A DNA stretch of 64,000 nt from an uncultured Candidatus Saccharibacteria bacterium (GTDB lineage Bacteria; Patescibacteriota; Minisyncoccia; UBA6257; 2-01-FULL-56-20), in the NCBI GenBank assembly GCA_965231155.1, contig OZ246418.1, positions 368,751-432,750 on the forward strand, in the 5' to 3' direction. Position numbers and translations under genes: made by a program. Position 1 is the first letter of the stretch. Each line of letters starts with the position of its first letter. Positions 21,984 through 64,000 of this stretch are shown here, one piece after another. The notes under the pieces are model-generated. The model was not told the origin of the DNA, ran no database searches, and was given only the letters and a program-made list of their open reading frames with translations.

Positions 21984-21989
21984 TTTTTT

Positions 21990-24301: not shown

Positions 24302-24346
24302 AATAGAGAAAAGGTCGAGATTCGCTAGACATATACACGAAAAAAA

Positions 24347-24760
24347 ATGAACAAAAAAGGTTTTACACTTATCGAACTCTTGATCGTTGTGGCGATTATC
24401 TCCATCTTGGCGGGTATTGTGTTAGTTGGTCTCCGACCAAGCTTAAACACCGCTCGAGATGCGCGGCGAATTGCTGAAATCAAACAGATTCAGACTGGTT
24501 TGCAGTTGTACTATAATCGAAACGGTGTGTACCCAGATTCTCTTCAGGACGTCCTTGATTCTGGAGTAGTGACTGCAATGCCATTGTTGGATCCTGGACA
24601 GGCTCCATATGGATATGCCAAAGATGCCGCTACCGGAGGATATATTTTGGGTACAATTTTTGAGGAACCTAACTCAAAATCCACTCAGAATCAGGTTACC
24701 ACTGGCAGTGCTGGTACCGTCAACTGTGGTGATGAGAAAGCTTACTGCGTAAGTTTCTAG
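24347..24760 (+). CDS. Type IV (major) pilin
   Basis: Prepilin leader and methylation motif MNKKGFTLIELLIVVAIISILAGIV (G|FTLIE). C-terminal Cys pair (CGDEKAYC). Confidence 0.85.
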   Translation: MNKKGFTLIELLIVVAIISILAGIVLVGLRPSLNTARDARRIAEIKQIQTGLQLYYNRNGVYPDSLQDVLDSGVVTAMPLLDPGQAPYGYAKDAATGGYILGTIFEEPNSKSTQNQVTTGSAGTVNCGDEKAYCVSF

Positions 24761-24764
24761 TTTT

Positions 24765-41641: not shown

Positions 41642-42157
41642 ATGGATATCCATAAAAAAATAGTACATTCATCGTTTCTGATTAGTGCTGTTATTCTAAG
41701 CCTCTTTTCTTTTACGATGGTTTTGGCTCAGACAACCTCTTGGCTTTCGAGTGGCGACCAACTTTACACAGCTTCTCAAGTGAGAAAGGTGGGCATTGGA
41801 ACTACTGCTCCAGATTTTCCATTAACACTGCAGGCATTCGTAGGCGCCGACCCATTATTTTCTCGGGTGTTTTCTTTCCAGGATCAAAACGGTGTACGCA
41901 AGTGGCATCTTAATTTTCTGAATGGGGGATTGAACTTTGTGCAGTCTGGAGTGGCTGACTACAGACTGTTCTTAGCACAAAATGGAAATGTGGGAGTTGG
42001 TCTTGCAACTCCACAAGCAAAGCTGGATGTAAATGGCACAGTTAAGGTTGGTTCTCTTACTGCTGATCCAACTGGAGAGAATGGAATGATTTATTACAAT
42101 AATTCCTTGCAAACTTTTCGTTGTTATGAGGCTGGAATGTGGAAGGATTGTTTTTAA
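41642..42157 (+). CDS. Small secreted protein consisting of signal peptide plus the shared C-terminal module (paralog of the NHL protein C-terminus)
   Basis: 171 aa. Signal peptide ends ...MVLAQ. The mature protein is identical over 124 aa to the NHL protein C-terminal module, then diverges in the last about 18 aa (NNSLQTFRCYEAGMWKDCF vs TTMNKFRCYKSSQWRNC). Confidence 0.6.
   Translation: MDIHKKIVHSSFLISAVILSLFSFTMVLAQTTSWLSSGDQLYTASQVRKVGIGTTAPDFPLTLQAFVGADPLFSRVFSFQDQNGVRKWHLNFLNGGLNFVQSGVADYRLFLAQNGNVGVGLATPQAKLDVNGTVKVGSLTADPTGENGMIYYNNSLQTFRCYEAGMWKDCF
41730..42101 (+). repeat. 372-bp direct repeat, copy 2
   Basis: Identical to 41163..41534. Confidence 0.9.
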
Positions 42158-43653: not shown

Positions 43654-44409
43654 ATGATTCTTTCGTTGAACCTTGTCCGAGAGATTGTTTTGTCCGACTA
43701 CAAGTTGAGATATCAGGGCTCTATTCTTGGTTTTTTCTGGTCATTTTTGAAGCCTCTTCTTATGTTTGGAGTGCTTTTGGTGGTGTTTTCAGAGTTTATG
43801 CGTTTTGATATTCCTCACTATCCCTTCTATTTGCTGCTAGGAATTATTATCTGGAATTTTTTTGCTGAGGCAACAACTTCTTCAAGCGCTAGTCTCTTAG
43901 CAAAAGGGGGGTTAATCAAGAAGATCTATTTTCCAAAAAGCACCATTGTTGTTTCTGCAGTTTTGACTGCCGCCTTAAACTTTTTCTTCAACTTTTTTGT
44001 TTTTTTCATAATTCTTCTTTTCAGGACGCAAGTTTTTTTGGGGGGACTATTGTTGTTTTGCGTTCTTTTTCTTGAACTGTTTTTCTTGTCCCTTGGCATT
44101 TCTTTTCTTGTTTCTTCTTTGAACGCTCGTTTAAAGGATATCGCTCATATTTGGGAGTTACTTCTTCAGGCTGGATTTTGGCTTACTCCAGTTGTCTATG
44201 CCAAGGAGATGATTCCGCCGAGTTATCAGTGGCTTATTAATCTGAATCCTCTGGCACAGATTATCGAGTATGCCCGGGGGGTACTCCTTTTCCAGACCAT
44301 ACCGTCATTTTTTAGCGTCGTGTCTCTCACGGTATTCGTCGGCGTTGTTTTTGCTATAGGATATTCTGTATTCCGCAGTCGAGAGAATTTTTTTGCTGAG
44401 GAACTATAG
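43654..44409 (+). CDS. ABC-2 type polysaccharide export permease (Wzm/TagG-like)
   Basis: Six TM helices. N-terminal REIVLSDYKLRYQGSILGFFWSFLKP is typical of ABC-2 exporters. Confidence 0.8.
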   Translation: MILSLNLVREIVLSDYKLRYQGSILGFFWSFLKPLLMFGVLLVVFSEFMRFDIPHYPFYLLLGIIIWNFFAEATTSSSASLLAKGGLIKKIYFPKSTIVVSAVLTAALNFFFNFFVFFIILLFRTQVFLGGLLLFCVLFLELFFLSLGISFLVSSLNARLKDIAHIWELLLQAGFWLTPVVYAKEMIPPSYQWLINLNPLAQIIEYARGVLLFQTIPSFFSVVSLTVFVGVVFAIGYSVFRSRENFFAEEL

Positions 44410-44410
44410 C

Positions 44411-45592
44411 ATGCACTTACCGGTAATAGAACTGAAAAAGGTCTCCAAGAGTTTCCTCATTCCTCATGAAAAGATGAGCACTTTGCGCGAGCGCTTTATT
44501 CATCTTTTTCGGCCAAGAACATACGAGTCGTTCAGAGCATTGTCCGACATATCCCTGGCCGTTCAGCCCGGTGAATTCCTTGGAGTTATCGGTGACAACG
44601 GGAGTGGTAAATCCACTTTCTTGAAAGTTCTATCGGGTGTACTGAGGCCTGATTCTGGTAAGGTCAAAGTGCGTGGCGTGATCTCTCCTTTCCTTGAGTT
44701 AGGGTTGGGCTTTCAGCCAGATTTGTCTGGTCGGGAGAATATGTTTCTTTATGGCGCTCTCCTTGGTCTTTCTAGGAAAGATATTCATAAGAAGTACCAA
44801 GAGATCGTGGCCTTTGCTGAGCTTGAGAGATTTATTGATCAGAAGATAAAAAATTACTCTTCAGGTATGCAGGTTCGTTTGGCTTTTGCGATTACCATCC
44901 AAGCTCAAGCTGATATTTTCTTAGTAGACGAAGTATTGGCTGTTGGTGATTATAAGTTTCAAGAAAAATGTTTTGAGGTATTTCGTCGGTTTAAGCAGGA
45001 AAAGAAGACGGTGATTTTTGTGAGTCATGATTTGGAAAAAGTTGAACAGTTTTGCGAACGTTCGATTTTGATCAAGGACGGTCAGTTAGTGAAGTCTGGC
45101 AGAACGGACGAGGTCGTTACTTACTACAAAGCCCAAAGAAGGGGTGGCGCTCCTTTCACTGAGAAGAGAGAGGGGGTGCTTGTCTCGGATGTGACCCTTC
45201 TCGATGGGAGTGGAAAGGTCTGTGCTGTGTTTCATCCCAATGAGCCAATGACGGCAACTTTTCGATACCATTCTTCTCAGGACTTCGATCAAGTCATTTT
45301 TCAGATTCAGATGTATACGGAGGGCGGTTGGCTTTGCGCTGGAGACAATACCGATCGGCATGGCTTGGTCAAAGAAGGGACGAGTGGAAGAGGAGTTGGT
45401 CGTATCCAGTACGATGCTATTAATCTTTTGAGCGGTCGTTATACTGTTTTCATAAAAATTTGGCCATCCGGTTTCTCTGGGCCGTGTTTTGAGTCTCAAC
45501 CCGTTTATTTTTCCGTAGAGAGTCGTCCGGAAGAGGGAGGGGCGATTTGTTATATGCCGGCTCGGTGGGAGATTGAGTCAAAGAACGAGTAA
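44411..45592 (+). CDS. Polysaccharide ABC-transporter ATP-binding protein (Wzt/TagH-like) with extra C-terminal domain
   Basis: Walker A GDNGSGKST. Signature SGMQVRLAFA. Walker B IFLVDEVLAVGD. About 150-aa C-terminal extension (possible substrate-binding domain). Alternative start 44393 overlaps wzm. Confidence 0.9.
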   Translation: MHLPVIELKKVSKSFLIPHEKMSTLRERFIHLFRPRTYESFRALSDISLAVQPGEFLGVIGDNGSGKSTFLKVLSGVLRPDSGKVKVRGVISPFLELGLGFQPDLSGRENMFLYGALLGLSRKDIHKKYQEIVAFAELERFIDQKIKNYSSGMQVRLAFAITIQAQADIFLVDEVLAVGDYKFQEKCFEVFRRFKQEKKTVIFVSHDLEKVEQFCERSILIKDGQLVKSGRTDEVVTYYKAQRRGGAPFTEKREGVLVSDVTLLDGSGKVCAVFHPNEPMTATFRYHSSQDFDQVIFQIQMYTEGGWLCAGDNTDRHGLVKEGTSGRGVGRIQYDAINLLSGRYTVFIKIWPSGFSGPCFESQPVYFSVESRPEEGGAICYMPARWEIESKNE

Positions 45593-46641
45593 TGAAATAC
45601 GGTGCTTTAACATATACCGATATCGCTCCTTTTTCTTCGGGGAATATTGGTGATTACATTCAGAGCCTGGCAGCTATTCAGTTCTTGCCTCGTATCGATA
45701 TTTTTTTAGAAAGGGAAAATCTTAAAACTACTCCAGAAGGAGAGGAGATTTTTGTCATCATGAATGGATGGTTTATGCATCGTCCAGAAAATTTTCCGCC
45801 ACCGAAGAATATTCGTCCATTTTATATTTCATTTTGCGTGGCTGACGAGAAGATGCTTTCTCCAGATGCTGTCGAACATTTAAAGAAACATGGGCCAATT
45901 GGTTGTCGCGATTATGATACGGTTGAGCTTCTTCGAGCCAAAGGAGTACCGGCTTATTTTTCGGGTTGTCTGACTCTGACTTTTGAAAATTTTTACAAGA
46001 AAAGAAACGGCGGTGTTTATCTTGTTGATGTGAAGGAAGGTTTTTTAGATTCTGTTCCTGCTGGCATAAGAGAGAGAGCTGTGGGACTTTCTCACGAGGC
46101 TATTCTTCCGCAAAGTTCGTTGGAGCTATTGAGGATGGGTAGGGTCAAGTATTTTGCTCACACAAAAAGAGCTAAAATACTAGATCTTTTTGTTCTTTTT
46201 CGCCGAATTTTTTCTTGGCGGTTTAGAAAGCTGTTGCCAAAAAATGATTATCGATTTAGCACTTTTAGTACATTTTTGAATCTAGTTCGCGCACAAAGTT
46301 TTCTGGATTTTTATGCCCAGGCAGATTTGGTCATTACGAGTCGTCTCCACGTTGCCCTTCCTTGTCTCGCTTTTAGTACGCCAGTTATTTTGTTCAAGCC
46401 TCACTACGAGGAGAATCATGATAGGTTCACGGCAGTCAAGGAATATCTCCAGTCTTTTTCCGAGAATGAGCTAGGTGCTATCAACTGGTATCCTCAGCCT
46501 CCCCAGGTAGAAGCTCACCAGAAATTCCTTCGTCTTATTGTGAGAGAGGCTGTCTTGATTGGTGATAATCCCTTGAAGAATCGAGATCTAGAGTACTTCT
46601 ACAAGGAGAGCGGTTGGTATCCTTCTTCTGGTGTTTTATGA
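45592..46641 (+). CDS. Polysaccharide pyruvyl transferase family protein (CsaB/WcaK-like)
   Basis: N-terminal GNIGDYIQ and C-terminal LVITSRLHVALPCLAFSTPVI match the PS_pyruv_trans pattern. Confidence 0.55.
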   Translation: MKYGALTYTDIAPFSSGNIGDYIQSLAAIQFLPRIDIFLERENLKTTPEGEEIFVIMNGWFMHRPENFPPPKNIRPFYISFCVADEKMLSPDAVEHLKKHGPIGCRDYDTVELLRAKGVPAYFSGCLTLTFENFYKKRNGGVYLVDVKEGFLDSVPAGIRERAVGLSHEAILPQSSLELLRMGRVKYFAHTKRAKILDLFVLFRRIFSWRFRKLLPKNDYRFSTFSTFLNLVRAQSFLDFYAQADLVITSRLHVALPCLAFSTPVILFKPHYEENHDRFTAVKEYLQSFSENELGAINWYPQPPQVEAHQKFLRLIVREAVLIGDNPLKNRDLEYFYKESGWYPSSGVL

Positions 46642-46673
46642 TAGGGCATAGGTAGATTCATAAGAAACTCATT

Positions 46674-47675
46674 ATGGATAAAAAGGAAACTATTCAAACC
46701 AGCTTCATCATCCCTTGTTTTAACTATGGGCAGTATTTACCCGAGGCAATTCAGAGTGTCCTAGATCAAACCTATCAAGATTTCGAAATTATTGTGGTCG
46801 ATGATGGGTCGACCGACGAGCTCACGAAAAAAGTTCTTGCTGAAATTAATTATCCGAAGGTGAGGGTTATTCATCAAGAAAATAAGGGTTTACCAGTAGC
46901 CAGAAATGTCGGTATTCGAGAAGCGAAAGGGGAGTTCATAGTGCCCCTTGATGCCGATGACAAATTGGATCCTACTTATCTTGAGAAGTGCTTGTGGATG
47001 TTTGAGCATAATCCAGGGATAGGGTTCGTATATACGGTCACCCAAACATTTGGTGATTATGAATATTTCTTTGGTTTTAAAGAATATAATTTTCGAGAGC
47101 TTCTTTCTGAGAATTTTATTCCTGCCACGGCATGTTTTCGGAAATCTGATTGGAGCCGTATAGGAGGATACGAAGAACGTTTATCTTCTTATGAGGATTG
47201 GGAGTTCTGGATTCATCTAGGTAAGGAGGGGATTTTTGGAGTTCTTTTGCCAGAACCACTTTTTTTCTACAGAAAACATGGAGATTCTATGCTTGAGACA
47301 AAAGGTAAGCCAAACCATGCAATGATTTATAGTCAGATAAAAGGACTGCATCCAGAACTTTTTCCTTCGGGGGAGATTGATGGAGATTATGAACATTTGG
47401 GAAGAGTCTCTTCCCAAATCATTTATCCGTCCCATGCACTTGATACTATCGCCAGTATCTTTAGAAAATTCCAAGATCGTCACATAGAAGATAGAGAAAC
47501 GGTCAAGAAGACATATCAAAAACTTCTCTTGCTGGAAGGAGGGTTGCGTGAAGAACGTGGTCACAGGATGGAGTTGCAGGGTGCTTTTGATAAAATTTTG
47601 CATTCTCGGGGTTGGCGAATAATTAGCTTTCTTCATAATGTAAGAATGAGAATTCCTTTACTTAGAGATCTCTGA
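46674..47675 (+). CDS. Family 2 glycosyltransferase
   Basis: SFIIPCFNYGQYLPEAIQSVLDQTYQDFEIIVVDDGSTD...DADD. Confidence 0.85.
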   Translation: MDKKETIQTSFIIPCFNYGQYLPEAIQSVLDQTYQDFEIIVVDDGSTDELTKKVLAEINYPKVRVIHQENKGLPVARNVGIREAKGEFIVPLDADDKLDPTYLEKCLWMFEHNPGIGFVYTVTQTFGDYEYFFGFKEYNFRELLSENFIPATACFRKSDWSRIGGYEERLSSYEDWEFWIHLGKEGIFGVLLPEPLFFYRKHGDSMLETKGKPNHAMIYSQIKGLHPELFPSGEIDGDYEHLGRVSSQIIYPSHALDTIASIFRKFQDRHIEDRETVKKTYQKLLLLEGGLREERGHRMELQGAFDKILHSRGWRIISFLHNVRMRIPLLRDL

Positions 47676-47694
47676 GAGGCTATGATCCATTAAT

Positions 47695-49800
47695 ATGAAA
47701 GAATCTGTGTCACACACTGCTGTGTCTGAACTGAAATCATTATTGTCTAAAGACTCGGGTCAGATTAAGGTAGTTTCTTTCGACGTGTTTGATACCTTGT
47801 TGGTCAGGCCATTTTTGAAGCCGACGGATCTTTTTGCGTTTATTTCTCCTCAGGTAGAAGAGATTATTGGTCGATCGATAGATTTTAGGAAGGAGCGCAT
47901 GACTGCTGAATATGAAACGCGTTTGGCCTTGTCTCATCACGAAGACATCACCATTGATGAGATATATGATCATTTTTTAGCTCTGCCACCTCAGCATCGA
48001 GAAACAATAAAAAAATTAGAGGTAGAAACCGAACGACGATTAATCTATGCCAAGAAAAGTGGGCGAGAGCTTTTTGAGATAGCGAAGGCTTCTGGGAAAA
48101 CTCTTGTTGCAGTTTCTGACATGTATCTTTCAAGAGTATTCATAGAAGAGCTTTTGCTTCGTGAGGGATACAGTTTCGATCGAGTATATGTTTCCTCTGA
48201 GCACCGGAAGGTGAAGGTCAGTGGCAGTATGTTTAACTGGGTAATGGAAGATCTCGGGGTAGCTCCTCATGAGATAGTTCACATTGGCGACAATCCCGTA
48301 TATGACGGTTCGGCAGTTGCGCGCCTGGGGATTAATACAATTTTAGTTGGTTTGAACCGAGAGACGATGATGTCGGGTTGGCCTCATAATCTTTTGTGGA
48401 GAAGGGGTTCTTCGGATTCTTCGGTGAGTGCAGTTTTGGGAGTTATCGCGAATCAACTTTTTGATAAAGATGCATCTGATTTTTCTTACGACAAGGATTC
48501 TATTTTTAATGGAAGTTCCTACAACGTTGGTTACTACTGGCTTGGACCAGTTCTTGCTGCTTTTTCTTTGGAGTTGATTCGCAATGCTAAAGATAGGAAT
48601 TGTCTGTACTTTTTGTCTCGCGATGGTTGGATCATGAAGCAGGTCTACGATATCATTGCTCCCTATTTTAATTCCTCGCCACAGTCCAAATATCTATATC
48701 TTTCTCGGAAGTCGACGGCCTTGGCACCAATTCGTTCTTTGGATGGTATGCGAGAAAAATTTGGCATTGTTTGGTTTGAGACAACTGTAGGAGAGTGGAT
48801 TAAAGATCGTGTTGGAATTGAGATCGAGCCGGGGGATGATGAGCTCGTTCGTAGATTTGGATTTGGAGATGGCTTGAAGAGTAAAATCAATCTTAAGAAT
48901 TGTTATAAATTCCAGGGAGTGCTTCTTGCGATCTCTCCGCGAGTGCTCGCTAAGGCGAAGAAACAGAGGAGTCTCCTTTTTGAATATCTCAGTCAGGAGG
49001 GAGTTGCTCGTCCGCATGGAGAAGAAGGAGACACCAACGAGAAGCTTGGTTTCGTAGACATTGGCTATCACGGGCAGACACCAAGAAATATTTTTCAGCT
49101 CACGGGGAATTATAATATTAATCTTTACTTCCTTGTCGCGGGTAAGGATATCTTTAGTCTGGTGGATGAGTTTGGAACGAGAGTGTACGGTTCTTATGGA
49201 GAGATGCGTCGAGGGACAAAGATATTGGATAGGAAATGGAAGAGCTTCTTCAGACATCACAAAATTTTCGAAACTTTTTTTATTACCACAGAAGGCAGTG
49301 TGACCGGATATTCTAGGGATAAGGATAATAAGGTAGTCCCTCAGTTCTATGAGATGAAATTTGGGAGGGAGCAGGAGATTGCAAAAAATGCTCATCAGGG
49401 GGCAGTAGATTTCGTTCGTGATTTTGCTAGTACCTTTGGTGGTCAGCTACAACATCTTAATCCTTCGGTCGACGTTCTCATGGAACCAATTTTGCTTTTT
49501 GCGAATTACACCTCGTCTCGTGATCTAGATATTCTTAGGGGTGCTTTTTTTGAGGATTATTTTTCTGGATTAGCACTTCAGGATGTGGAGTGGCCAGCTG
49601 GTAAATTAGCAAGGCGTTATCCTCGTCTTGCATCCCTGAGGAACTCTGTGTATTTTGAGATGAGGCGATTGTATGATATCCCTTCCATCGGTCGTTTCTA
49701 TGATAAGGGGTACGGCATAGCTTTGAAGATTTATCGTCGAGTTCGGAGAATATTTCGCTCATTTTTTATATTTAGAGAATTTTTTCCTAGGATATTTTAA
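47695..49800 (+). CDS. Large HAD-superfamily-like protein (N-terminal DxFDTL phosphatase motif), function unknown
   Basis: 701 aa. VVSFDVFDTLLVRPF (HAD motif I). No recognisable features in the remainder. Confidence 0.5.
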   Translation: MKESVSHTAVSELKSLLSKDSGQIKVVSFDVFDTLLVRPFLKPTDLFAFISPQVEEIIGRSIDFRKERMTAEYETRLALSHHEDITIDEIYDHFLALPPQHRETIKKLEVETERRLIYAKKSGRELFEIAKASGKTLVAVSDMYLSRVFIEELLLREGYSFDRVYVSSEHRKVKVSGSMFNWVMEDLGVAPHEIVHIGDNPVYDGSAVARLGINTILVGLNRETMMSGWPHNLLWRRGSSDSSVSAVLGVIANQLFDKDASDFSYDKDSIFNGSSYNVGYYWLGPVLAAFSLELIRNAKDRNCLYFLSRDGWIMKQVYDIIAPYFNSSPQSKYLYLSRKSTALAPIRSLDGMREKFGIVWFETTVGEWIKDRVGIEIEPGDDELVRRFGFGDGLKSKINLKNCYKFQGVLLAISPRVLAKAKKQRSLLFEYLSQEGVARPHGEEGDTNEKLGFVDIGYHGQTPRNIFQLTGNYNINLYFLVAGKDIFSLVDEFGTRVYGSYGEMRRGTKILDRKWKSFFRHHKIFETFFITTEGSVTGYSRDKDNKVVPQFYEMKFGREQEIAKNAHQGAVDFVRDFASTFGGQLQHLNPSVDVLMEPILLFANYTSSRDLDILRGAFFEDYFSGLALQDVEWPAGKLARRYPRLASLRNSVYFEMRRLYDIPSIGRFYDKGYGIALKIYRRVRRIFRSFFIFREFFPRIF

Positions 49801-49809
49801 CTTCTATAT

Positions 49810-50592
49810 ATGCATTCTTCCATAATCAATCTTTCGGCTATTATTGTCTGTACAAATGAAAAGAAGTTTTTGGAAGCTGCGCTTTCTTCTTTGTCGAAAT
49901 CGTTAGGTGGTTTCGACTCTGAAATCATTGTCGTGGACAATAATTCCTCTGATGGGAGTCGAGAGTTTATTAAAGAGAAATTTCCTGATGTTGTATTAAT
50001 CCACAATCGGGAAAATAGAGGAGCAGCGTATGCGCGAAATCGAGGGATCGAAAAAGCCCGGGGGCGGTATTTTCTTTTTCTCGATTGTGATACGGAAAGC
50101 GTGAAAGTTGTTCCGACCCTTCTTCTTTCTTATTTGGAAGAGCATCCTGAAATTGGCGTTCTAGCCCCTCGGTTGGTTTATCCAGATCGGAGTTTACAGT
50201 ATTCCTGTCGGCCATTTCCTAACTTAGCTACATTTTTTTTGCGAGTTTTAGACGGTGATTTGAAACTACTGTGGCGTAGAGAAAATTTTGTAACAGATTG
50301 GGATCATAGTTCTTTAAGAGAAGTTGATTGGACGATGTCGGCAGCGTGGTTGATGCCACGAACGACGATTGAGAAAGTTGGGCTGTTCGATGAGGGTTAT
50401 TTTTATAATTACGAAGATGTAGATTTTTGTTGGCGAGTAAAGAAAGCGGGACTTAAAGTCGTCTATTATCCAGAAGCTGAAGTTGTCCATCATTACCAGC
50501 GGTTGAGTGCTAAGGGTGGTTTCAGAAATCCGTTGAAGTGGTCGCATCTGAAGAGTGCCTTGCGATTCTTCTACAAAAAAGCATGGTCATAA
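49810..50592 (+). CDS. Family 2 glycosyltransferase
   Basis: IIVCTNEKKFLEAALSSL...IIVVDNNSSDGS...LDCD. Confidence 0.85.
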   Translation: MHSSIINLSAIIVCTNEKKFLEAALSSLSKSLGGFDSEIIVVDNNSSDGSREFIKEKFPDVVLIHNRENRGAAYARNRGIEKARGRYFLFLDCDTESVKVVPTLLLSYLEEHPEIGVLAPRLVYPDRSLQYSCRPFPNLATFFLRVLDGDLKLLWRRENFVTDWDHSSLREVDWTMSAAWLMPRTTIEKVGLFDEGYFYNYEDVDFCWRVKKAGLKVVYYPEAEVVHHYQRLSAKGGFRNPLKWSHLKSALRFFYKKAWS

Positions 50593-51677
50593 CCAAAGAT
50601 AGATTGCGTCAGATTTTTTTTCTTTTCGGGGATATTTTCAGTTTAGTCTTTGGATTTTTATTGGTTTTTGCGCTTAGAAGAAGAACGCCTTTTTTTCCAC
50701 CGCTCCAGGAGTTTTCTTTTTATAGCTCTTTCTTGTGGGTATATGTTTTTTCTTTTGTAGGACTTTTTTTTGCCTTCCGTTTTTACGAGAAAGAACGTCC
50801 ACAGTTTTCTTTGTCTTACCTCGCAGACTATGTTCGTGCCTTGCTATGTTGGGGATTTATTATGATCGGTTTTGCATTCCTCGCTCAGGCGAACTACTCT
50901 CGAGTGCTTTTGTTGTATGCGCTTATTCCAGGTTTCATTTTTCCTTTTCTGATTCGTTTAATAGTTGTTCGCGTGTTTCCTCAGACGAAGGTTTTTTCAG
51001 AAGAAGAGGAGATTGCAAAGAGAGCTCGTGAACTCATTGAGTTTCATCAGATCTCAACTCGAGAACTGGATGTTCTGGAGGGACTCAAAGAAGAACGGAC
51101 CGATTCTTATTTTTATCTCTTTGCCAAACGTTCTCTTGATATCGCCCTCTCCGTTTTTGGACTTTTATTTTGCATTCCCTTTATTCCCTTTGTGGCTCTT
51201 TGGATAAAGCGTGATAGTCGTGGGCCGATACTCATTACCCAGGAGCGTGTTGGTCGAGGGGGGGAGATTTTCTTATTGTATAAATTAAGAACTATGATTT
51301 TCGACACGCCCTTATATGCAGCAGCGCCTCGCGAAAGAAGTGATGAACGAATAACTTCAGCTGGTCGTTTTCTGAGGAGCTATAGTCTTGATGAGTTACC
51401 GCAACTGTGGAATGTCTTGAAGGGAGAAATGAGCCTAGTCGGTCCTCGACCAGAAATGCCATTTTTAGTGGCTCGACATAATGATTGGCAAAAACGACGC
51501 TTGCTGGTGAAGCCGGGAATTACCGGGCTTTGGCAAGTTCTTGGTCGGAAAGATTTACCGCTTTCTGAGAATCTGGAGTATGATTTTTATTATATTAATC
51601 ATCGCTCTTTCCTTTTGGATGTCGTTATTCTGCTAAGAACAGTGCCTGCGATCGTTTTGAAAAGGGGAGCATATTAG
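50583..51677 (+). CDS. Polyprenyl-phosphate sugar-phosphate transferase (bacterial sugar transferase, WbaP/ExoY-like initiating enzyme)
   Basis: N-terminal TM block. C-terminal conserved KLRTM, DELPQLWNVLKGEMSLVGPRPE. Alternative start 50538. Confidence 0.85.
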   Translation: MVITKDRLRQIFFLFGDIFSLVFGFLLVFALRRRTPFFPPLQEFSFYSSFLWVYVFSFVGLFFAFRFYEKERPQFSLSYLADYVRALLCWGFIMIGFAFLAQANYSRVLLLYALIPGFIFPFLIRLIVVRVFPQTKVFSEEEEIAKRARELIEFHQISTRELDVLEGLKEERTDSYFYLFAKRSLDIALSVFGLLFCIPFIPFVALWIKRDSRGPILITQERVGRGGEIFLLYKLRTMIFDTPLYAAAPRERSDERITSAGRFLRSYSLDELPQLWNVLKGEMSLVGPRPEMPFLVARHNDWQKRRLLVKPGITGLWQVLGRKDLPLSENLEYDFYYINHRSFLLDVVILLRTVPAIVLKRGAY

Positions 51678-51680
51678 AAA

Positions 51681-53711
51681 ATGCAGACTTACAATTCTTC
51701 TCTCTCGTGGTCGCGTGTTCGTCTGGCCTTTTTTGCATTGGTGATGGTAGTACTTCTCCCAGCAGTTTTTAGTGGCGGTCTTGATGATTTTGGTCGAGGG
51801 CTCTTTTTTGTACTTGCGGCGCTTTTTATTGTGCTCCAGCACTCATATTGTCCGAGAGACAAACAGATTCGTATCTTTTCCTACTTATCTATACTTTTTC
51901 TAGGATTAATTTTTTGCTCAGCATTTGTTTCCTTCGACTATCACAAAACGGTCAACGATTTTTTTGTGCTTATGGCGGCAGTGCTTGTCGGCTTCAAGAG
52001 CTTCTTTCTTTTCAAGGATGTCGGATTAGAAGATAAATTTTTCAGATGGCTTCTCGGGGGAACCGTTCTCTTCTCTCTCTATGGACTCTATATTTTTATA
52101 GGTGCCGATCCCTTATTTCGTCTTGGTTCAGTTTTCTACCAGCAAAATGCTTTTGCGGGGTTTATGTTGCCTTCTCTATTCTTCGTTTTCGGATCCCTTT
52201 TTATCACTCGGTCGAAATGGAGGTTTATTTTGTTTGGATCGATTGGTGTTTTATTAATCACAGTTTTCATCCTGACTTTTGCCCGAGGGGCTGCACTGGC
52301 GTTTTTGGGAAGTTTTGTGGTGACGGCGATGCTCTTACGGTGGTCTTTGCGTGAGTGGGTAAAAAATATTGGAATTACATCTCTCATACTTTTTCTCGGT
52401 GGCATCTTGGCGTTTACTGTTTTTAGCGCAAAGAATCAGAGGTTCGCTCAGACAGTTCACATTGCACCAAATTCTCCGGTCCAGTTCTTTGAGTACGAAA
52501 CGCCTCAGGAGAATGGCTTGATGGCTCGTTTTGCATTCCTGAAGGAAACTCAAAGAATCTTTTTCTTATATCCTTTGACTGGTGTCGGGTGGGGTGCTTT
52601 TGGAGATGCGTTTTTTATGCACCGAGAAGGACTTCGCAACTATACTGCCGATCCGCATAATCTCATTGCTCGAAGTTTTGTTGAGCTTGGTGTGATTGGT
52701 GGACTGATATTTCTTGTTCTTGTTGGCAATCTTTTCTACTTCGTGTGGCTGGTGGCGAGAAGGGATTATAAGGATAGGACGGAAAGGACTTTTTCGTTTG
52801 TTGTTATCGGAAGCTTTCTGGCTTTTTTCTTTCAGAATATGGTAAACGCCGACTGGCTTTTTCCGTCCGATGTTGTTCTTTTTTGGGTGATTGTGGCCCT
52901 ACTTGTAAGACGAGTTTACGAGAGAGAGACATCGGTTATTCACTCAGTTCGTTGGTTGAATAATTTGATTATTCTATTTGGTATTGGTTTGGCAGTAGTT
53001 GGTGGTACGCAAGTTCTTGCCAGAAGTTATTTCAATCAAGCTCACGAGCTCGTGTCTTTAGGGCGAAGCAGTGAGGCTTTTGACAGTTATCGATGGGCCG
53101 TGCGTCTTGATCCATGGGAACCTCTTTATAAACGCGACCTTGCGATGGTGCATATTGAGTCAATGAAGCGAACAAGAGATAAGAGCTTGGCGATCTTTCA
53201 TCAAGAACAGGCATTAGACGAGATCAATCAAGGATTAGCTATTCGTCCTTTTGATCCATATTTCTTCTTCCTGCGTGGGCAAGTGTATTTTTATCAAGGC
53301 GATACAGAGAGAGCGAAGACTGCCTTCCAAACAGCTCTACGATATGATCGTTTTACTTTGTTTGGTGCGTATCGCGAACTGGTTAATCTTTATTTTCAGC
53401 AAGAAGATTATCAGGCAGTTGTCGAACTTCTTCAGCCTATTGTGCGAGTGTATTCCGAAGAGGTTTTTGCTTCGGTCGCCTGGATCAATCCCCACAAAGA
53501 TCAATCAAGGAAAGAGGTCGCAGATCTGTGGTTGCGTCTAGGTTTGGCTCACCTCGGTCTTCGAGACTCTACCGCTGCCAGAACAGCTTTTGAGACGGCT
53601 CAACGGTTCGACCCAGAGAATGCGCAGGTGAAGAGGGCGGGGGATTGTTTTCAGCTCCAGCCTCGTTCCTTGGATGCTTTTAGGAGTTGTTTCTATTCTT
53701 CAGCTTACTAG
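51681..53711 (+). CDS. Second Wzy_C (O-antigen ligase-like) membrane protein with C-terminal TPR repeats
   Basis: About 11 TM helices with a Wzy_C-type loop (FILTFARGAALAFLG...). C-terminal TPR-like repeats (AFDSYRWAVRLDPWEP..., AKTAFQTALRYD...). Same architecture as 10231..12471. Confidence 0.7.
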   Translation: MQTYNSSLSWSRVRLAFFALVMVVLLPAVFSGGLDDFGRGLFFVLAALFIVLQHSYCPRDKQIRIFSYLSILFLGLIFCSAFVSFDYHKTVNDFFVLMAAVLVGFKSFFLFKDVGLEDKFFRWLLGGTVLFSLYGLYIFIGADPLFRLGSVFYQQNAFAGFMLPSLFFVFGSLFITRSKWRFILFGSIGVLLITVFILTFARGAALAFLGSFVVTAMLLRWSLREWVKNIGITSLILFLGGILAFTVFSAKNQRFAQTVHIAPNSPVQFFEYETPQENGLMARFAFLKETQRIFFLYPLTGVGWGAFGDAFFMHREGLRNYTADPHNLIARSFVELGVIGGLIFLVLVGNLFYFVWLVARRDYKDRTERTFSFVVIGSFLAFFFQNMVNADWLFPSDVVLFWVIVALLVRRVYERETSVIHSVRWLNNLIILFGIGLAVVGGTQVLARSYFNQAHELVSLGRSSEAFDSYRWAVRLDPWEPLYKRDLAMVHIESMKRTRDKSLAIFHQEQALDEINQGLAIRPFDPYFFFLRGQVYFYQGDTERAKTAFQTALRYDRFTLFGAYRELVNLYFQQEDYQAVVELLQPIVRVYSEEVFASVAWINPHKDQSRKEVADLWLRLGLAHLGLRDSTAARTAFETAQRFDPENAQVKRAGDCFQLQPRSLDAFRSCFYSSAY

Positions 53712-53775
53712 GCGGTCGAGTGAGGGGGTTGTTTTTATCTGGCTCTTCGGCCAGAATTTTGCTACCATCATTTTT

Positions 53776-54942
53776 ATGGATTCCATCTATAACTCCCCAG
53801 ATTTAGAGCCGAAGGAGTATCCTATTTCTCTTGAGAACGAGAAGGCGGTCTTACTTTCTTTGGCTGCTCGGAAGGATTTTGAGGCAGAGCGAATGAAGCG
53901 CTATCTTGGCATGCCTGATCTTTCTCGTACCGAAGGTAGTCCTCTTCATGAGATTGTAGCTCAGGCAAGGAGTGTGCCCGCGTTGAAAAATTTCGATAAT
54001 ATTATTATCCCGGAGATTGTGCCAGCTGATATCAGTTTTGATCTTTTTGATTTTGCCCCAGATCATCCAGCGCGAAGCACCTCTGATACCTACTACGCAG
54101 ATCCAAAGAATATTTTGCGTACTCATGACACGGTTATGTGGTACTACTATTTGAATCTTCCTGAGATAAAGAAAAAGATTGCAGAGAAAAAATCATTGGG
54201 AGTGACCTGCTATGGAAAGGTATTCCGGAAAGACGAGATTGATCGTCGGCACATGAATATTTTCCACCAGTTCGGTGGTCTGTATCTGACTCCAGATACG
54301 ACTGCGATGATTGAGATTGATGAGTTGAGGAATGTACTGACCCAAATTGTGAGGGGGCTTTTTGGTGAGAATATTCAGTATCGATTCCTCGATGACACGT
54401 TCCCATACACTGATCCTTCTCTTCAGGTAGAAATATTTGTAAACGATCAGTGGGTGGAAATCTTGGGTGGGGGAATGCCCAAGAAGAGCGTTTTAAAGAA
54501 GTTCGGAGTGGAGGGCTATAATGGGTGGGCGTTTGGCTTTGGTCTTGAGCGACTGGCAATTATTAGCATGGAACTGCCAGATATTCGATTGTTGTGGTCA
54601 GATGATCCACGAGTGACTAAGCAACTGAAGATGGGACAGAAGTTTCAGGAGGTGAGTAAATACCCACCAGCACCTCGTGATATTTCTTTTATCGTACCCA
54701 AGACATTTTCTCCAAATGATTATTTTGATTTAGTTCGTGATGTGGCCGGCGACCTTGTGGAGCAGGTAGAACTTTTGGACAGTTATGAGAATGATGCCAA
54801 GTTCGGTGCTGAGAGAAAGAGCTATACCTATCGGGTTATTTATCGGAGTAGCGAGCGGACATTGACCAGCGAAGAAGTTGATGCCATGCATAAAACACTT
54901 GAGCAAAAATCGAGAGAGCAGTTCGGCGCCGAGGTGCGGTGA
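53776..54942 (+). CDS. pheS: Phenylalanine--tRNA ligase, PheS-type catalytic domain fused to a C-terminal FDX-ACB anticodon-binding domain (monomeric mitochondrial-like architecture)
   Basis: Class II motif 2 (FRKDEIDRRHMNIFHQFGGLYL) and motif 3 (GWAFGFGLERLAII). PheS-type HPAR segment (FDFAPDHPARS). C-terminal YPPAPRDISFIV...LLDSYEN...KSYTYRVIYRSSERTLTSEEVDAMHKTLEQK...GAEVR matches the PheT C-terminal FDX-ACB domain. No long N-terminal coiled coil. Confidence 0.8.
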   Translation: MDSIYNSPDLEPKEYPISLENEKAVLLSLAARKDFEAERMKRYLGMPDLSRTEGSPLHEIVAQARSVPALKNFDNIIIPEIVPADISFDLFDFAPDHPARSTSDTYYADPKNILRTHDTVMWYYYLNLPEIKKKIAEKKSLGVTCYGKVFRKDEIDRRHMNIFHQFGGLYLTPDTTAMIEIDELRNVLTQIVRGLFGENIQYRFLDDTFPYTDPSLQVEIFVNDQWVEILGGGMPKKSVLKKFGVEGYNGWAFGFGLERLAIISMELPDIRLLWSDDPRVTKQLKMGQKFQEVSKYPPAPRDISFIVPKTFSPNDYFDLVRDVAGDLVEQVELLDSYENDAKFGAERKSYTYRVIYRSSERTLTSEEVDAMHKTLEQKSREQFGAEVR

Positions 54943-54949: not shown

Positions 54950-56467
54950 ATGGCAAAAAAATCATTATCGTTCTTATCTTTTAGCTCGATCCCAGAACAG
55001 GTTCAGCAAGTAGCTGGCGAGTTGGTGGCTCATGGTCATCAGGCCTATTTAGTTGGTGGATGCGTTCGTGACCTTATTCTTTCTCGAGAACCCAAGGACT
55101 GGGACATTGCCACCGAGGCGACGCCTGAGCAGATTCAGAAGATCTTTCCAGAGAGTGTCTATGAGAATCAGTTTGGAACCGTTGGCGTAAAGACTGAAGC
55201 AGTTGATTCTCGATTGAAAATTATCGAGGTGACGACATTTCGGAAGGAGGGAAAATATACCGATAAACGTCATCCAGACGAGGTGAGTTTCTCAAAGACC
55301 ATCGACGAAGATCTGGCCCGACGAGATTTTACCGTGAATGCGATGGCGTTACGGTACGACGAAGATCTGGCGAGTATAGATAGGGGATCTCTTGTTTCGC
55401 ATCTCGTCGACCCTTTTCATGGTCAGGAAGATTTGGAGGCGCGAGTGATTCGCACTGTGGGAAATCCCGAGGCGCGGTTCGATGAAGATGCGTTGCGATT
55501 AATGCGGGCGGTGCGGTTTGCCACGGAGTTGGATTTCCAGATTGATCTAGAAACTCGGCAGGCAATTGAAAAGAAGGCTGGTCTTTTGGAGATGATCGCT
55601 AAGGAGCGAGTTCGTGATGAGTTTGTAAAGATTATTATGAGCGAGCGAGCAGCGTCAGGCGTGTTGCTTTTGGAGGAGCTCGATTTGTTGCGATATATAC
55701 TTCCTGAACTTCGTGAAGGAATAGGGATGAGTCAGAACCTTCATCATATTTACACGGTGTTTGAACACAATCTTCGGGCCCTTGATTATGCGGTTAGACA
55801 GAATTATTCACTGGAAGTTCGAGTGGCATCCTTGTTGCACGACGTAGGTAAACCGAAGACGAAGAGGGGAGAGGGGAAGAATGCTACTTTCTATAATCAC
55901 GAAGTGGTGGGTGCGAAAATGGCTTTTGGTATTTTAGAGCGACTTCGTTTTGGTAAAGAGTCTATTGAACATATTGCGCATCTCATTCGGTATCATATGT
56001 TCTATTACAACGTCGGTGAGGTGACTGAGGCGGGAGTACGTCGATTTCTGGCGCGCGTTGGACCAGAGAATGTTGATGACTTAATGAAAGTGCGTGAGGC
56101 TGATCGAATTGGTTCAGGCGTGCCGAAGGCGGTGCCATACAAATTGCGCCACTTTCTTTTTATGATCGAGAAGGTAAAACACGATCCAATCTCGCCGAAG
56201 ATGTTAAAGGTGACGGGTAGTGATATCATGTTTCTTCTCAGCATCCCGCCAGGTCCGAAGGTTGGTTTTATTCTTTCTATTTTATTGGAAGAGGTTTTAG
56301 ATAACCCACACTGTAATTTGGTTGAGTATCTGGAAAAACGAGTGCATGAACTTGGGAAGCTTAATGAAAAAGAACTGAAGGCGATGGCCGACCAGGCCAA
56401 GAATCGTAAAGAAGAGTTTGAGACAGGAACCGAAGAAGAGATGAAGAAGAAGTTTTTTGTGAAGTAG
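54950..56467 (+). CDS. cca: CCA-adding tRNA nucleotidyltransferase (poly(A) polymerase head domain plus HD domain)
   Basis: YLVGGCVRDLIL (GGxVRD). NTP-transferase DxD region. HD motif LLHDVGKP. 505 aa from the ATG 8 nt after the pheS stop. Confidence 0.85.
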   Translation: MAKKSLSFLSFSSIPEQVQQVAGELVAHGHQAYLVGGCVRDLILSREPKDWDIATEATPEQIQKIFPESVYENQFGTVGVKTEAVDSRLKIIEVTTFRKEGKYTDKRHPDEVSFSKTIDEDLARRDFTVNAMALRYDEDLASIDRGSLVSHLVDPFHGQEDLEARVIRTVGNPEARFDEDALRLMRAVRFATELDFQIDLETRQAIEKKAGLLEMIAKERVRDEFVKIIMSERAASGVLLLEELDLLRYILPELREGIGMSQNLHHIYTVFEHNLRALDYAVRQNYSLEVRVASLLHDVGKPKTKRGEGKNATFYNHEVVGAKMAFGILERLRFGKESIEHIAHLIRYHMFYYNVGEVTEAGVRRFLARVGPENVDDLMKVREADRIGSGVPKAVPYKLRHFLFMIEKVKHDPISPKMLKVTGSDIMFLLSIPPGPKVGFILSILLEEVLDNPHCNLVEYLEKRVHELGKLNEKELKAMADQAKNRKEEFETGTEEEMKKKFFVK

Positions 56468-61124: not shown

Positions 61125-61321
61125 CTCTTCTACGTATGAGGACTCATAGAAACCTGTTGACCTAGAGTGGTTGCGCGAGGCTTTCTAAAGTCTTGGGTGC
61201 CGCTCAGAGAGCGGTTTTTTTGTTCCATGCGAGCTCGTTGAAATTTTAATGATTAAGTAATTAAGTAGGTTCGTCTTCTTGCTCCTCAAGGCAGGAAGCG
61301 AACATAAGTCAGCATTGGGAT

Positions 61322-64000
<2,679 letters not shown>

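What the first reader, a model, noticed from the sequence alone, without database searches (positions are those of the whole stretch)
53776..54942. Monomeric, mitochondrial-like PheRS architecture: PheS catalytic core fused to a PheT-type FDX-ACB anticodon-binding domain
The 388-aa product has class II motifs 2 and 3 and the PheS HPAR segment. It lacks the long N-terminal coiled-coil of bacterial PheS. It ends with about 95 aa matching the ferredoxin-fold anticodon-binding domain that normally sits at the C-terminus of the bacterial beta subunit PheT (YPPAPRDISFIV...LLDSYEN...YTYRVIYRSSERTLTSEEVDAMHKTLEQK...GAEVR). This domain order (catalytic domain then FDX-ACB in one chain) is the hallmark of monomeric mitochondrial PheRS. 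Canonical bacteria use an (alpha-beta)2 heterotetramer. No pheT is present in this window; pheS and pheT are usually adjacent.
Basis: partly seen in the sequence, partly recalled or inferred. Interest (0 to 1): 0.65.

Follow-up and report, generated by a model that had tools for sequence, protein, structure and literature searches.

The report
Mitochondria-style single-chain PheRS in bacteria
This ultra-small (CPR/Patescibacteria) bacterium encodes its phenylalanine-charging enzyme as one short chain, a form thought typical of mitochondria, with no proofreading domain; thousands of related bacteria and some giant phages carry it too, and NCBI labels the bacterial copies seen here "hypothetical protein".

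Summary
Window 53776-54942 (+) encodes a 388-aa protein with a PheS-type class II core (aa 54-283) joined directly to a PheT-type FDX-ACB domain (aa 294-388). It has no N-terminal coiled-coil. The AlphaFold model (pLDDT 94.9) superposes full-length on human mitochondrial PheRS (TM 0.78).

The gene belongs to a large Patescibacteria family: Parcubacteria lineages, Doudnabacteria and a code-25 lineage. The CPR forms group with 100% NJ bootstrap, apart from an unresolved eukaryotic and viral radiation. Catalytic residues are invariant in 83 species and dN/dS is 0.03. About 50 of 85 loci place the gene next to gyrB.

It is not SrmL. It scores 218 bits against a 300 cutoff, and true SrmL proteins have a different pocket.

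The window's subclade has a remodelled pocket: the motif-2 acidic residue is Gly, a new invariant Asp sits beside the conserved His, and FPF is FPY.

Most likely it is the housekeeping, editing-free PheRS. Not proven: absence of pheT elsewhere in this genome. No whole genome was accessible. One Parcubacteria bin with canonical pheST lacks the fused gene. Monomeric state and activity are also untested.

Verdict: a new bacterial member of a known enzyme kind; I found no paper describing it.

The parts
53776..54942 (+). Gene for the 388-aa single-chain PheRS (stop codon at 54940-54942)
   Evidence: ORF list; Pfam two-domain hit; homologues of the same length; dN/dS 0.03 against the 94% relative
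53776..53934 (+). Short N-terminal region (aa 1-53) made of a few short helices; it stands in place of the roughly 100-aa coiled-coil of bacterial PheS
   Evidence: No PF02912 hit; model helices at 20-31 and 35-45; the alignment with E. coli PheS shows the missing N-terminal segment
53935..54624 (+). Class II catalytic core, PheS type (aa 54-283)
   Evidence: PF01409 E 1.4e-48; Foldseek matches to bacterial PheS chains over about 234-280 columns
54064..54075 (+). HPAR segment (aa 97-100); His97 and Arg100 are invariant in 83 species
54121..54132 (+). THDT (aa 116-119), where canonical enzymes have TH/Q-T-S/T; Asp118 is invariant in clade A (83/83) and absent from clade B, P0121, the mitochondrial forms and E. 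coli
54214..54279 (+). Motif 2 region (aa 147-168, GKVFRKDEIDRRHMNIFHQFGG); Arg151 is invariant; Gly167 replaces the Glu/Asp of FHQxE/DG (Gly in 80 of 83 clade-A sequences)
54400..54420 (+). FPYTDPS (aa 209-215), the aromatic Phe-recognition pair; Tyr211 stands where bacterial and mitochondrial enzymes have Phe (T. thermophilus Phe260)
   Evidence: residue roles from PMC3275996
54523..54552 (+). Motif 3 (aa 250-259, GWAFGFGLER); Ala252 (E. coli Ala294, the specificity residue) and Arg259 are invariant
   Evidence: Ala294/Ala314 role from PMC3275996
54625..54654 (+). Junction (aa 284-293). The preceding LPDIRLLWSDDPRVTKQLK aligns with the extreme C-terminus of E. coli PheS (VTDLRSFFENDLRFLKQFK), and the FDX-ACB domain starts about 10 aa later
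   Evidence: Alignment A4
54655..54939 (+). FDX-ACB (PheT B8-type) anticodon-binding domain (aa 294-388), with beta-alpha-beta-beta-alpha topology
   Evidence: PF03147 E 2.3e-23; TIGR00472 pheT_bact positions 693-798; E. coli PheT 696-794; model secondary structure; superposition on 3CMQ; dN/dS 0.048
54950..56467 (+). CCA-adding enzyme gene starting 7 nt after the PheRS stop; probably co-transcribed. This neighbour is conserved only in the closest subclade
   Evidence: Pfam PolyA_pol + PolyA_pol_RNAbd + HD; sequence; adjacent in 16 of 77 loci with room downstream

Best explanation
The gene encodes the organism's housekeeping phenylalanyl-tRNA synthetase in a single-chain, mitochondrial-type format. 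The class II core binds Phe and ATP and forms Phe-AMP. The C-terminal FDX-ACB domain, the same module that sits at the C-terminus of bacterial PheT, reads the tRNA-Phe anticodon. By analogy with the human mitochondrial enzyme, it probably swings from a closed to an open position to admit the tRNA. There is no beta subunit module and therefore no B3/B4 editing site, so mischarged Tyr-tRNA-Phe would not be cleared in cis.

The format could arise from an ordinary pheS-pheT operon by one in-frame deletion running from the end of pheS to the start of PheT domain B8, because the junction falls exactly at the PheS C-terminus.

The fused form is old and vertically inherited in much of the CPR. In the window's subclade the amino-acid pocket has been retuned: the motif-2 carboxylate is lost and an Asp is gained on the neighbouring TH-x-T segment, and FPF has become FPY.

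Shown: architecture, fold, family membership, conservation, selection and distribution. Inferred: catalytic activity, monomeric state, absence of a beta subunit and of editing in this genome, the deletion origin, and the functional meaning of the pocket changes.
For: - **Architecture and fold:** (pLDDT 94.9; TM 0.78 to 3CMQ over both domains).
- **PheRS-type pocket kept and invariant in 83 species-level sequences:** His97, Arg100, Arg151, Phe163-His164-Gln165, Phe209, Trp251, Ala252, Phe253 and Arg259.
- **Strong purifying selection on both domains:** dN/dS is 0.016 in the core and 0.048 in the linker plus FDX-ACB region, at dS about 1.
- **Very wide, highly conserved distribution in small-genome bacteria:** thousands of homologues at 65-94% identity, found in Kaiser-, Nomura-, Adler-, Zambryski-, Taylor-, Giovannoni-, Lipton- and Doudnabacteria, including three complete single-chromosome MAGs of 0.83-0.88 Mb. 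A second, orthologous clade occurs in Wolfe-, Staskawicz-, Nealson- and Portnoybacteria. A code-25 CPR form also exists.
- **Phylogeny:** all CPR forms group with 100% NJ bootstrap.
- **Conserved housekeeping locus:** the gene lies next to gyrB (and nusG/rplK) in about 50 of 85 loci, across both clades.
- **tRNA-related neighbours:** cca in the window's subclade, and a standalone PheT-B2-type tRNA_bind gene immediately upstream in 4 of 4 Doudnabacteria-type contexts.
- **No canonical genes nearby:** there is no canonical pheS or pheT in the window or within +-10 kb in 80 species.
- **One side of mutual exclusivity:** a complete gene table of a Parcubacteria bin that does have canonical pheS and pheT contains no fused gene.
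- **Junction position:** it coincides with the PheS C-terminus.
Against: - Absence of pheT and pheS elsewhere in this genome, or in any fused-gene genome, was not shown. Only the window and 20-kb loci could be read.
- Canonical PheST does exist in some Parcubacteria and other CPR (PMC5370408). The label 'Nealsonbacteria' appears both on a canonical PheT and on a clade-B fused gene, so co-occurrence in some genomes is not excluded.
- The protein falls below the curated cutoffs of all NCBIfam PheRS models.
- In the window's clade, the motif-2 acidic residue that (from my memory of the T. thermophilus PheRS structures) contacts the substrate amino group is replaced by Gly.
- No biochemical data exist.
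Confidence: 0.77

Rival explanations
1. It is an accessory paralogue that coexists with a canonical (alpha-beta)2 PheRS encoded elsewhere in the genome. It would do something else: ligate a different substrate as proposed for SrmL, act as a stress- or antibiotic-resistant back-up PheRS, or feed Phe-tRNA to a non-ribosomal process.
For: - The second-best NCBIfam hit is the 'PheS-related mystery ligase SrmL' (218 bits).
- True SrmL proteins share the same two-domain layout and sit on plasmids of bacteria that have normal PheST.
- An Oligoflexia MAG, a bacterium with a normal-sized genome, carries a clade-B-like copy.
- Canonical PheST occurs in some Parcubacteria.
- The window's clade has an unusual pocket with Gly at the motif-2 acidic position.
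Against: - The protein scores 218 against the 300-bit SrmL cutoff, while true SrmL proteins score 515-524.
- SrmL has lost or changed the PheRS pocket residues (no HPAR His; PHQ for FHQ; HPYT for FPF/YT; GLA[M/L]G for GWAFG). The window protein keeps them all.
- The gene is highly conserved (65-94% identity, dN/dS 0.03) at a housekeeping locus across CPR classes with genomes of about 0.8 Mb.
- The one complete gene list with canonical pheST has no fused copy.
Confidence: 0.13
2. It is the housekeeping PheRS but not a true monomer. It would work as a homodimer, or together with a small trans-acting partner such as the standalone PheT-B2-type tRNA_bind protein, or a free editing factor. On this reading 'monomeric and editing-free' overstates the case.
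For: - A conserved tRNA_bind gene lies 1-19 bp upstream of the fused gene in L071, L049, L086 and a JGI 730-kb contig.
- About 650 standalone homologues of that gene exist, and JGI labels them 'PheRS beta chain'.
- Class II synthetases are normally dimeric (general knowledge).
Against: - The tRNA_bind partner is absent from the window and from 78 of 80 species-level loci.
- The model adopts the closed two-domain arrangement of the monomeric human enzyme.
- No B3/B4-like sequence occurs in the window.
Confidence: 0.08
3. It is a recent horizontal acquisition from a eukaryote (the nuclear gene for mitochondrial PheRS), or eukaryotic contamination of the assembly.
For: The best solved-structure match is human mitochondrial PheRS, and the best NCBIfam model is pheS_mito.
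Against: - The gene lies between bacterial genes, 7 nt upstream of cca, in a window with a bacterial 23S rRNA.
- The CPR forms are a separate clade with 100% bootstrap and are not nested among eukaryotic sequences.
- Identity to human FARS2 is only about 30%.
- The locus is conserved across CPR classes.
Confidence: 0.01

Closest known systems
Mitochondrial phenylalanyl-tRNA synthetase (human FARS2, yeast MSF1; 'PheRS-M'; NCBIfam TIGR00469)
   Same: - The domain order is the same: class II core, then FDX-ACB, in one chain of about 390-415 aa.
- Neither has a coiled-coil or an editing domain.
- The full-length fold matches, including the closed inter-domain arrangement (TM 0.78 to 3CMQ).
- Both share the PDIRLFWS...QF junction and the GWAFGxGLERLAM motif 3.
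- Thr follows the aromatic pair (FP-x-T), as in human Thr235.
   Different: - It is encoded in a bacterial chromosome.
- Identity is only about 30%, and the score is below the TIGR00469 cutoff (225 against 258).
- It lacks the insertion that splits the eukaryotic match into two stretches.
- It forms a separate CPR clade.
- In the window's subclade the pocket differs: THDT for THTS, FHQFGG for FHQLEA, FPY for FPF.
Canonical bacterial PheRS, (alpha-beta)2: PheS (TIGR00468) plus PheT (TIGR00472)
   Same: - The catalytic core is homologous to PheS (31% identity to E. coli PheS).
- The C-terminal domain is homologous to PheT domain B8 (30% identity to E. coli PheT 696-794).
- The fusion point is exactly at the PheS C-terminus.
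   Different: - One chain replaces two.
- It has none of the PheS N-terminal coiled-coil or PheT domains B1, B2, B3/B4 (editing), B5 and B6/B7.
- It scores below both curated cutoffs.
- No adjacent pheT was found.
SrmL, 'PheS-related mystery ligase' (NCBIfam NF051887)
   Same: It has the same two-domain layout and similar length (349-position model; the window protein matches positions 39-344). It is bacterial.
   Different: - The window protein scores 218 bits; true SrmL proteins score 515-524.
- The SrmL pocket is remodelled: no HPAR His, PHQ, HPYT, GLA[M/L]G, and an 8-aa insertion in the FDX-ACB domain.
- The two SrmL examples found are plasmid genes in Azotobacter and Glutamicibacter, which have ordinary genomes.
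Fused PheRS-like genes of huge phages and giant viruses (uncharacterised; IMG/VR contigs)
   Same: They are full-length matches that include the FDX-ACB domain, at 30-41% identity and 327-403 aa. Several 50%-cluster representatives of this size pass the pheS_mito cutoff.
   Different: They are viral and fall outside the CPR clade, in the unresolved radiation that also holds the eukaryotic sequences. Their function and host range are unknown.

Membership tests
Single-chain mitochondrial-type PheRS (PheRS-M) | Class II catalytic core of PheS type with motifs 2 and 3 and the Phe-pocket residues | tested here: met
   PF01409 E 1.4e-48; the key residues are present and invariant in 83 species
Single-chain mitochondrial-type PheRS (PheRS-M) | FDX-ACB (B8-type) anticodon-binding domain fused to the C-terminus of the same chain | tested here: met
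   PF03147 E 2.3e-23, aa 294-388; model topology; superposition on 3CMQ
Single-chain mitochondrial-type PheRS (PheRS-M) | No N-terminal coiled-coil and no beta-subunit domains in the chain | tested here: met
   Only two Pfam families hit; alignment with E. coli PheS
Single-chain mitochondrial-type PheRS (PheRS-M) | Full-length structural match to solved mitochondrial PheRS | tested here: met
   Foldseek against 3CMQ: E 1.8e-35, TM 0.78/0.75, rmsd 2.9 A, 386 columns
Single-chain mitochondrial-type PheRS (PheRS-M) | Score at or above the curated cutoff of NCBIfam TIGR00469 (pheS_mito) | tested here: not met
   225 bits against a cutoff of 258.35; the 60% relative P0121 passes with 264
Single-chain mitochondrial-type PheRS (PheRS-M) | Placement inside the eukaryotic (organellar) clade | tested here: not met
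   The CPR forms make a separate clade with 100% NJ bootstrap; human FARS2 groups with other, longer sequences
Single-chain mitochondrial-type PheRS (PheRS-M) | It is the only PheRS of its compartment or genome (no beta subunit) | tested here: inconclusive
   No pheT in the window or within +-10 kb in 80 species. A bin with canonical pheST lacks the fused gene. No genome with the fused gene could be scanned whole.
Single-chain mitochondrial-type PheRS (PheRS-M) | Monomeric quaternary structure | not testable with these tools
   Needs size-exclusion, light-scattering or structural data
Single-chain mitochondrial-type PheRS (PheRS-M) | Charges tRNA-Phe with phenylalanine | not testable with these tools
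   Needs an aminoacylation assay or genetic complementation
Canonical bacterial PheS (TIGR00468) | Score at or above the curated cutoff | tested here: not met
   144.7 bits against 237.45
Canonical bacterial PheS (TIGR00468) | N-terminal coiled-coil domain (PF02912) | tested here: not met
   No hit
Canonical bacterial PheS (TIGR00468) | Partner pheT gene, usually adjacent | tested here: not met
   None in the 64-kb window or in the flanks of 80 relatives; the rest of the genome is unknown
SrmL, PheS-related mystery ligase (NF051887) | Score at or above the curated cutoff of 300 bits | tested here: not met
   218.3 bits; true members score 514.7 and 524
SrmL, PheS-related mystery ligase (NF051887) | SrmL-type pocket (PHQ, HPYT, GLA[M/L]G, no HPAR His) | tested here: not met
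   The window protein has FHQ, FPYT, GWAFG and HPAR

The most novel reading that the evidence does not exclude
The single-chain PheRS is the sole, editing-free PheRS of a large part of the Candidate Phyla Radiation. It would be an old, vertically inherited bacterial invention that huge phages and giant viruses also carry. On this reading the 'mitochondria-only' monomeric PheRS was not assembled in the eukaryotic lineage but taken from such a prokaryotic or viral donor. In addition, the window's subclade would have moved the substrate-anchoring carboxylate from motif 2 to the TH-x-T segment.
Probability: 0.2. Interest if true: 0.85.

Novelty: new member of a known kind. Interest (0 to 1): 0.6.

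Why it matters
[quoted passage not shown] A large bacterial radiation using that format would change this view. It would also supply prokaryotic and viral outgroups for the unresolved origin of mitochondrial PheRS.
- **It bears on translation fidelity.** If there is no beta subunit, these bacteria translate without PheRS editing of Tyr-tRNA-Phe.
- **It exposes an annotation gap.** It falls below the pheS and pheT models, which (from my memory) are among standard bacterial marker sets. That could depress completeness estimates and marker recovery for these lineages.
- **It offers a small enzyme for engineering.** At 388 aa it is a very small natural PheRS from a bacterium.

Tried and rejected
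- **Exact-match look-up of the window protein** found no record. The closest relative is 94% identical on a 17-kb contig.
- **Literature searches** for a monomeric PheRS in bacteria or CPR, and for SrmL, found nothing relevant.
- **Supplement mining for whole-genome PheRS inventories.** It worked only for PMX_810_sub, a canonical pheST bin. The Minisyncoccus table is truncated and shows no PheRS row in the stored part. The other papers had nothing usable.
- **Obtaining a CPR PheT seed,** so that I could test co-occurrence by protein search. The tRNA_bind seed returned only standalone B2-type proteins, and no route to a full-length CPR PheT was found.
The viral structure library gave no close match.
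- **Cluster look-ups** for names of outgroup representatives returned almost no names.
- **A Biopython NJ bootstrap** timed out and was replaced by a vectorised implementation.
- **Measuring the Asp118-Gly167 distance** was not possible because model coordinates are not exposed.
- **cca adjacency as a family-wide functional link** is rejected. It holds only in the closest subclade (16 of 77 loci).
- **Eukaryotic contamination or recent transfer** is rejected.
Full report
**1. The observation**

- An ORF runs 53674-54942 on the + strand. The ATG at 53776 gives a 388-aa product whose length and N-terminus match its homologues (376-391 aa). The upstream Wzy_C/TPR gene ends at 53711.
- Pfam finds exactly two families. 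These are tRNA-synt_2d, the PheS-type class II core (aa 54-283, E 1.4e-48), and FDX-ACB (aa 294-388, E 2.3e-23), the latter covering its whole profile. There is no hit to the PheS N-terminal coiled-coil domain.
- The HPAR segment, motif 2 and motif 3 are present.
- tblastn with E. coli PheS and PheT against the whole window hits only this ORF. PheS matches the core and PheT residues 696-794 match the last 100 aa. So the window has no pheT and no second pheS.
- The window is bacterial, with a bacterial 23S rRNA at 61321-64000 and seven tRNAs.

**2. Structure**

- An AlphaFold2 model built from a 45-sequence alignment is very confident (mean pLDDT 94.9, pTM 0.91). The C-terminal domain has beta-alpha-beta-beta-alpha topology.
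- Foldseek against the PDB ranks human mitochondrial PheRS first (3CMQ and its mutants: E about 1e-35, TM 0.78, rmsd 2.9 A over 386 columns). Both domains match, and so does their closed mutual arrangement.
- The tRNA-bound open form (3TUP) and bacterial PheS chains match less completely. Bacterial PheS aligns over only about 234-296 columns, essentially the core.
- By sequence, human mitochondrial PheRS is also the best solved relative (E 1e-56, against 1e-29 for bacterial PheS).

**3. Which family**

- NCBIfam gives three sub-threshold matches: pheS_mito (225 bits, cutoff 258), SrmL "PheS-related mystery ligase" (218, cutoff 300) and pheS (145, cutoff 237). This probably explains why NCBI records call these proteins "hypothetical protein", while JGI calls them "PheRS alpha chain".
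- I found two true SrmL proteins on plasmids of Azotobacter chroococcum and Glutamicibacter nicotianae (515 and 524 bits).
- Their pocket differs from PheRS. The HPAR histidine is lost, FHQ is PHQ, FPF/YT is HPYT, and GWAFG is GLA[M/L]G. The window protein keeps all the PheRS-type residues. It is therefore not SrmL, by score or by pocket.

**4. Distribution**

- The protein has thousands of homologues with the same two domains.
- A scan of one genome per prokaryotic species returned 80 loci at 65-75% identity. They come from Kaiser-, Nomura-, Adler-, Zambryski-, Taylor-, Giovannoni-, Lipton- and Doudnabacteria and from unnamed Paceibacterota/Minisyncoccia MAGs. Three are complete single-chromosome assemblies of 827, 829 and 882 kb. 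I call this clade A.
- A second clade (B, about 46% identical to the window protein) occurs in Wolfe-, Staskawicz-, Nealson- and Portnoybacteria.
- A more divergent form (P0129) lies in a locus with 13 in-frame TGA codons at conserved Gly positions. That indicates genetic code 25, a Gracilibacteria/Absconditabacteria-type CPR organism.
- Outside the CPR, full-length relatives at 30-41% identity occur on 45 viral contigs, many of 200-536 kb, and on some giant-virus bins. One copy is in an Oligoflexia MAG.
- In an exhaustive search of 1.8 billion cluster representatives, only 213 clusters match at E <= 1e-30.

**5. Phylogeny**

- I built a neighbour-joining tree (151 taxa, 301 columns, 200 bootstraps, rooted on E. 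coli PheS).
- All CPR forms group together with 100% support. Clade A plus its 60% relative P0121 has 99.5% support and clade B 78.5%.
- Human FARS2 falls among the long, presumably eukaryotic representatives. The eukaryotic and viral radiation is unresolved.
- So the gene is neither eukaryotic contamination nor a recent transfer from eukaryotes. These data do not decide whether mitochondrial PheRS descends from such prokaryotic or viral forms.
- The tree has limits: it uses a distance method, a single outgroup, and representatives that carry no organism names.

**6. Evidence that it is a working, essential-type gene**

- Across 83 species-level clade-A sequences, all catalytic and Phe-pocket residues are invariant.
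- Against the 94%-identical relative, dN/dS is 0.03 overall: 0.016 in the core and 0.048 in the linker plus FDX-ACB region, at dS about 1.
- The gene sits beside gyrB in about 50 of 85 CPR loci, downstream or divergent, often with secE-nusG-rplK nearby. This holds in both clades A and B, which argues for one vertically inherited locus and against paralogy.
- In the window's own subclade the gene has moved, and the CCA-adding enzyme gene follows it 7 nt after the stop.
- In Doudnabacteria-type genomes, a 130-150-aa standalone tRNA_bind protein (37% identical to the B2 domain of E. coli PheT) is encoded 1-19 bp upstream of the fused gene in all four contexts examined. This partner is absent from the window.

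**7. Pocket remodelling**

| Group | TH-x-T segment | Motif 2 | Aromatic pair |
|---|---|---|---|
| Clade B | T-H/Q-T-T | FHQ-x-D-G | FPFT |
| P0121 | THTT | FHQMDG | FPYT |
| Clade A (window) | THDT | FHQ-F/M-G-G | FPYT |

- Asp118 is present in 83 of 83 clade-A sequences, Gly167 in 80 of 83 and Tyr211 in 82 of 83.
- According to PMC3275996, the two Phe residues of FPF form the aromatic recognition network. Tyr at the second position is the invariant state in eukaryotic cytosolic PheRS and is described as a conservative change.
- From my memory of the T. thermophilus structures (not checked here), the motif-2 Glu and the His and Ser of THTS all contact the substrate amino group. If so, Asp118 lies next to the lost carboxylate and may replace it. 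This is an inference, and I could not measure it.

**8. The open point: is there a pheT elsewhere?**

- This could not be tested directly, because no tool gives a whole genome.
- Some CPR do have PheT (PMC5370408).
- A Parcubacteria bin, PMX_810_sub, has adjacent canonical pheT (B3_4, CLM, B5, FDX-ACB) and pheS (core plus N-terminal domain). Its complete 866-gene table contains only those two rows with PF03147 or PF01409, so it has no fused gene. That is one side of a mutually exclusive pattern.
- The other side is supported only indirectly. There is no canonical gene in the window or in 80 flanks. These genomes are very small. The fused gene shows the conservation, selection and locus stability expected of a housekeeping gene.
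- The label "Nealsonbacteria" occurs on both a canonical PheT and a clade-B fused gene, so coexistence in some genomes cannot be excluded.
- I put the probability that the fused enzyme is this organism's only PheRS at about 0.75-0.8.

**9. Mechanism and origin (inferred)**

- By analogy with the human enzyme (PMC3275996), the core makes Phe-AMP. The FDX-ACB domain must move away from the core to bind the tRNA-Phe anticodon. There is no post-transfer editing, so Tyr could be stably attached.
- The alignment shows that the core runs to the very last residues of PheS (window LPDIRLLWSDDPRVTKQLK against E. coli VTDLRSFFENDLRFLKQFK). The B8-type domain starts about 10 aa later.
- A single in-frame deletion in a pheS-pheT operon, from the pheS stop codon to the start of B8, would produce exactly this protein. 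Whether that happened once or several times is unresolved.

**10. Verdict**

- The protein is a bacterial member of the single-chain, mitochondrial-type PheRS kind. It belongs to a large, old CPR clade and has a subclade-specific pocket variant.
- I found no paper describing it in about 8 million searchable papers. A field review states that the mitochondrial enzyme is the only known monomeric class II example.
- It is notable but not categorically new. Its main claim to importance, that it is the sole, editing-free PheRS of many bacteria, still needs a simple whole-genome check.

Noticed in passing
L071 9557-9967; L049 about 4631-5023; L086 6001-6399; JGI 730-kb contig (no DNA held): A standalone 130-150-aa tRNA_bind (PF01588) protein, 37% identical to the B2 domain of E. 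coli PheT, is encoded 1-19 bp upstream of the fused PheRS gene in Doudnabacteria-type genomes. About 650 homologues exist, and JGI labels them 'PheRS beta chain'. It may be a PheT remnant or a trans-acting tRNA-binding cofactor. It is absent from the window.
   Followed up: partly
L004 (160-kb contig); L089-L133 (IMG/VR contigs, many 200-536 kb, plus GVMAG bins): Huge phages and giant viruses encode full-length PheS-core plus FDX-ACB proteins (327-403 aa, 30-41% identical to the window protein). In the tree they fall in the unresolved radiation that also holds the eukaryotic mitochondrial enzymes.
   Followed up: partly
L087 9463-10833: A 456-aa fused PheRS gene with 13 in-frame TGA codons at conserved Gly positions (locus GC 32.5%). 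This indicates a code-25 (UGA = Gly) CPR organism. The database translation had used Trp (code 4).
   Followed up: partly
L135 6896-8008 (Azotobacter chroococcum plasmid NZ_CP066311.1); L136 6830-7948 (Glutamicibacter nicotianae plasmid NZ_CP142605.1): True SrmL 'mystery ligase' genes (NF051887, 515 and 524 bits) sit on plasmids among transposases, a toxin-antitoxin pair and resistance genes. These records annotate them as hypothetical proteins. Their pocket residues differ from PheRS.
   Followed up: partly
L006-L086, L134 (85 CPR loci): gyrB lies directly downstream of, or divergently upstream of, the fused PheRS gene in about 50 of 85 loci across both CPR clades, often with secE-nusG-rplK nearby. 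The window itself has no gyrB.
   Followed up: yes
window 61321-64000: The partial 23S rRNA spans 2680 nt for model positions 1-2168, so it carries roughly 500 nt of extra sequence. Two minus-strand ORFs inside it (62447-62731 and 62738-63370) have no Pfam hit. A relative (L001) has a LAGLIDADG gene in the corresponding area. No 16S rRNA was found upstream in the window.
   Followed up: partly
window 41163-41462 and 41730-42029: A perfect 300-nt direct repeat. It encodes the same roughly 100-aa C-terminal segment in the 1021-aa NHL/TIG beta-propeller protein (38540-41605) and in the next small ORF (41642-42157). A diverged copy pair lies in the third ORF (42462-42550 and 43197-43285, 71% identity).
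   Followed up: partly
window 10135-12471 and 51681-53711: Two large membrane proteins combine an O-antigen-ligase (Wzy_C) domain with C-terminal TPR repeats. The second ends a polysaccharide gene cluster at 43654-53711 (ABC transporter with Wzt_C, pyruvyl transferase, GT2 enzymes, Bac_transf) that lies immediately upstream of the PheRS gene.
   Followed up: partly
window about 17400-25600: Reading the translations by eye, this stretch looks like a type IV pilus cluster (PilM-like, GspE/PilB-like and PilT-like ATPases, PilC-like, pilin, prepilin peptidase). No tool was run on it.
   Followed up: no
(database names): Every NCBI-sourced name returned for this family is 'hypothetical protein', because the proteins fall below all curated PheRS model cutoffs. 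A probably essential aaRS therefore goes unnamed in these Patescibacteria records.
   Followed up: partly
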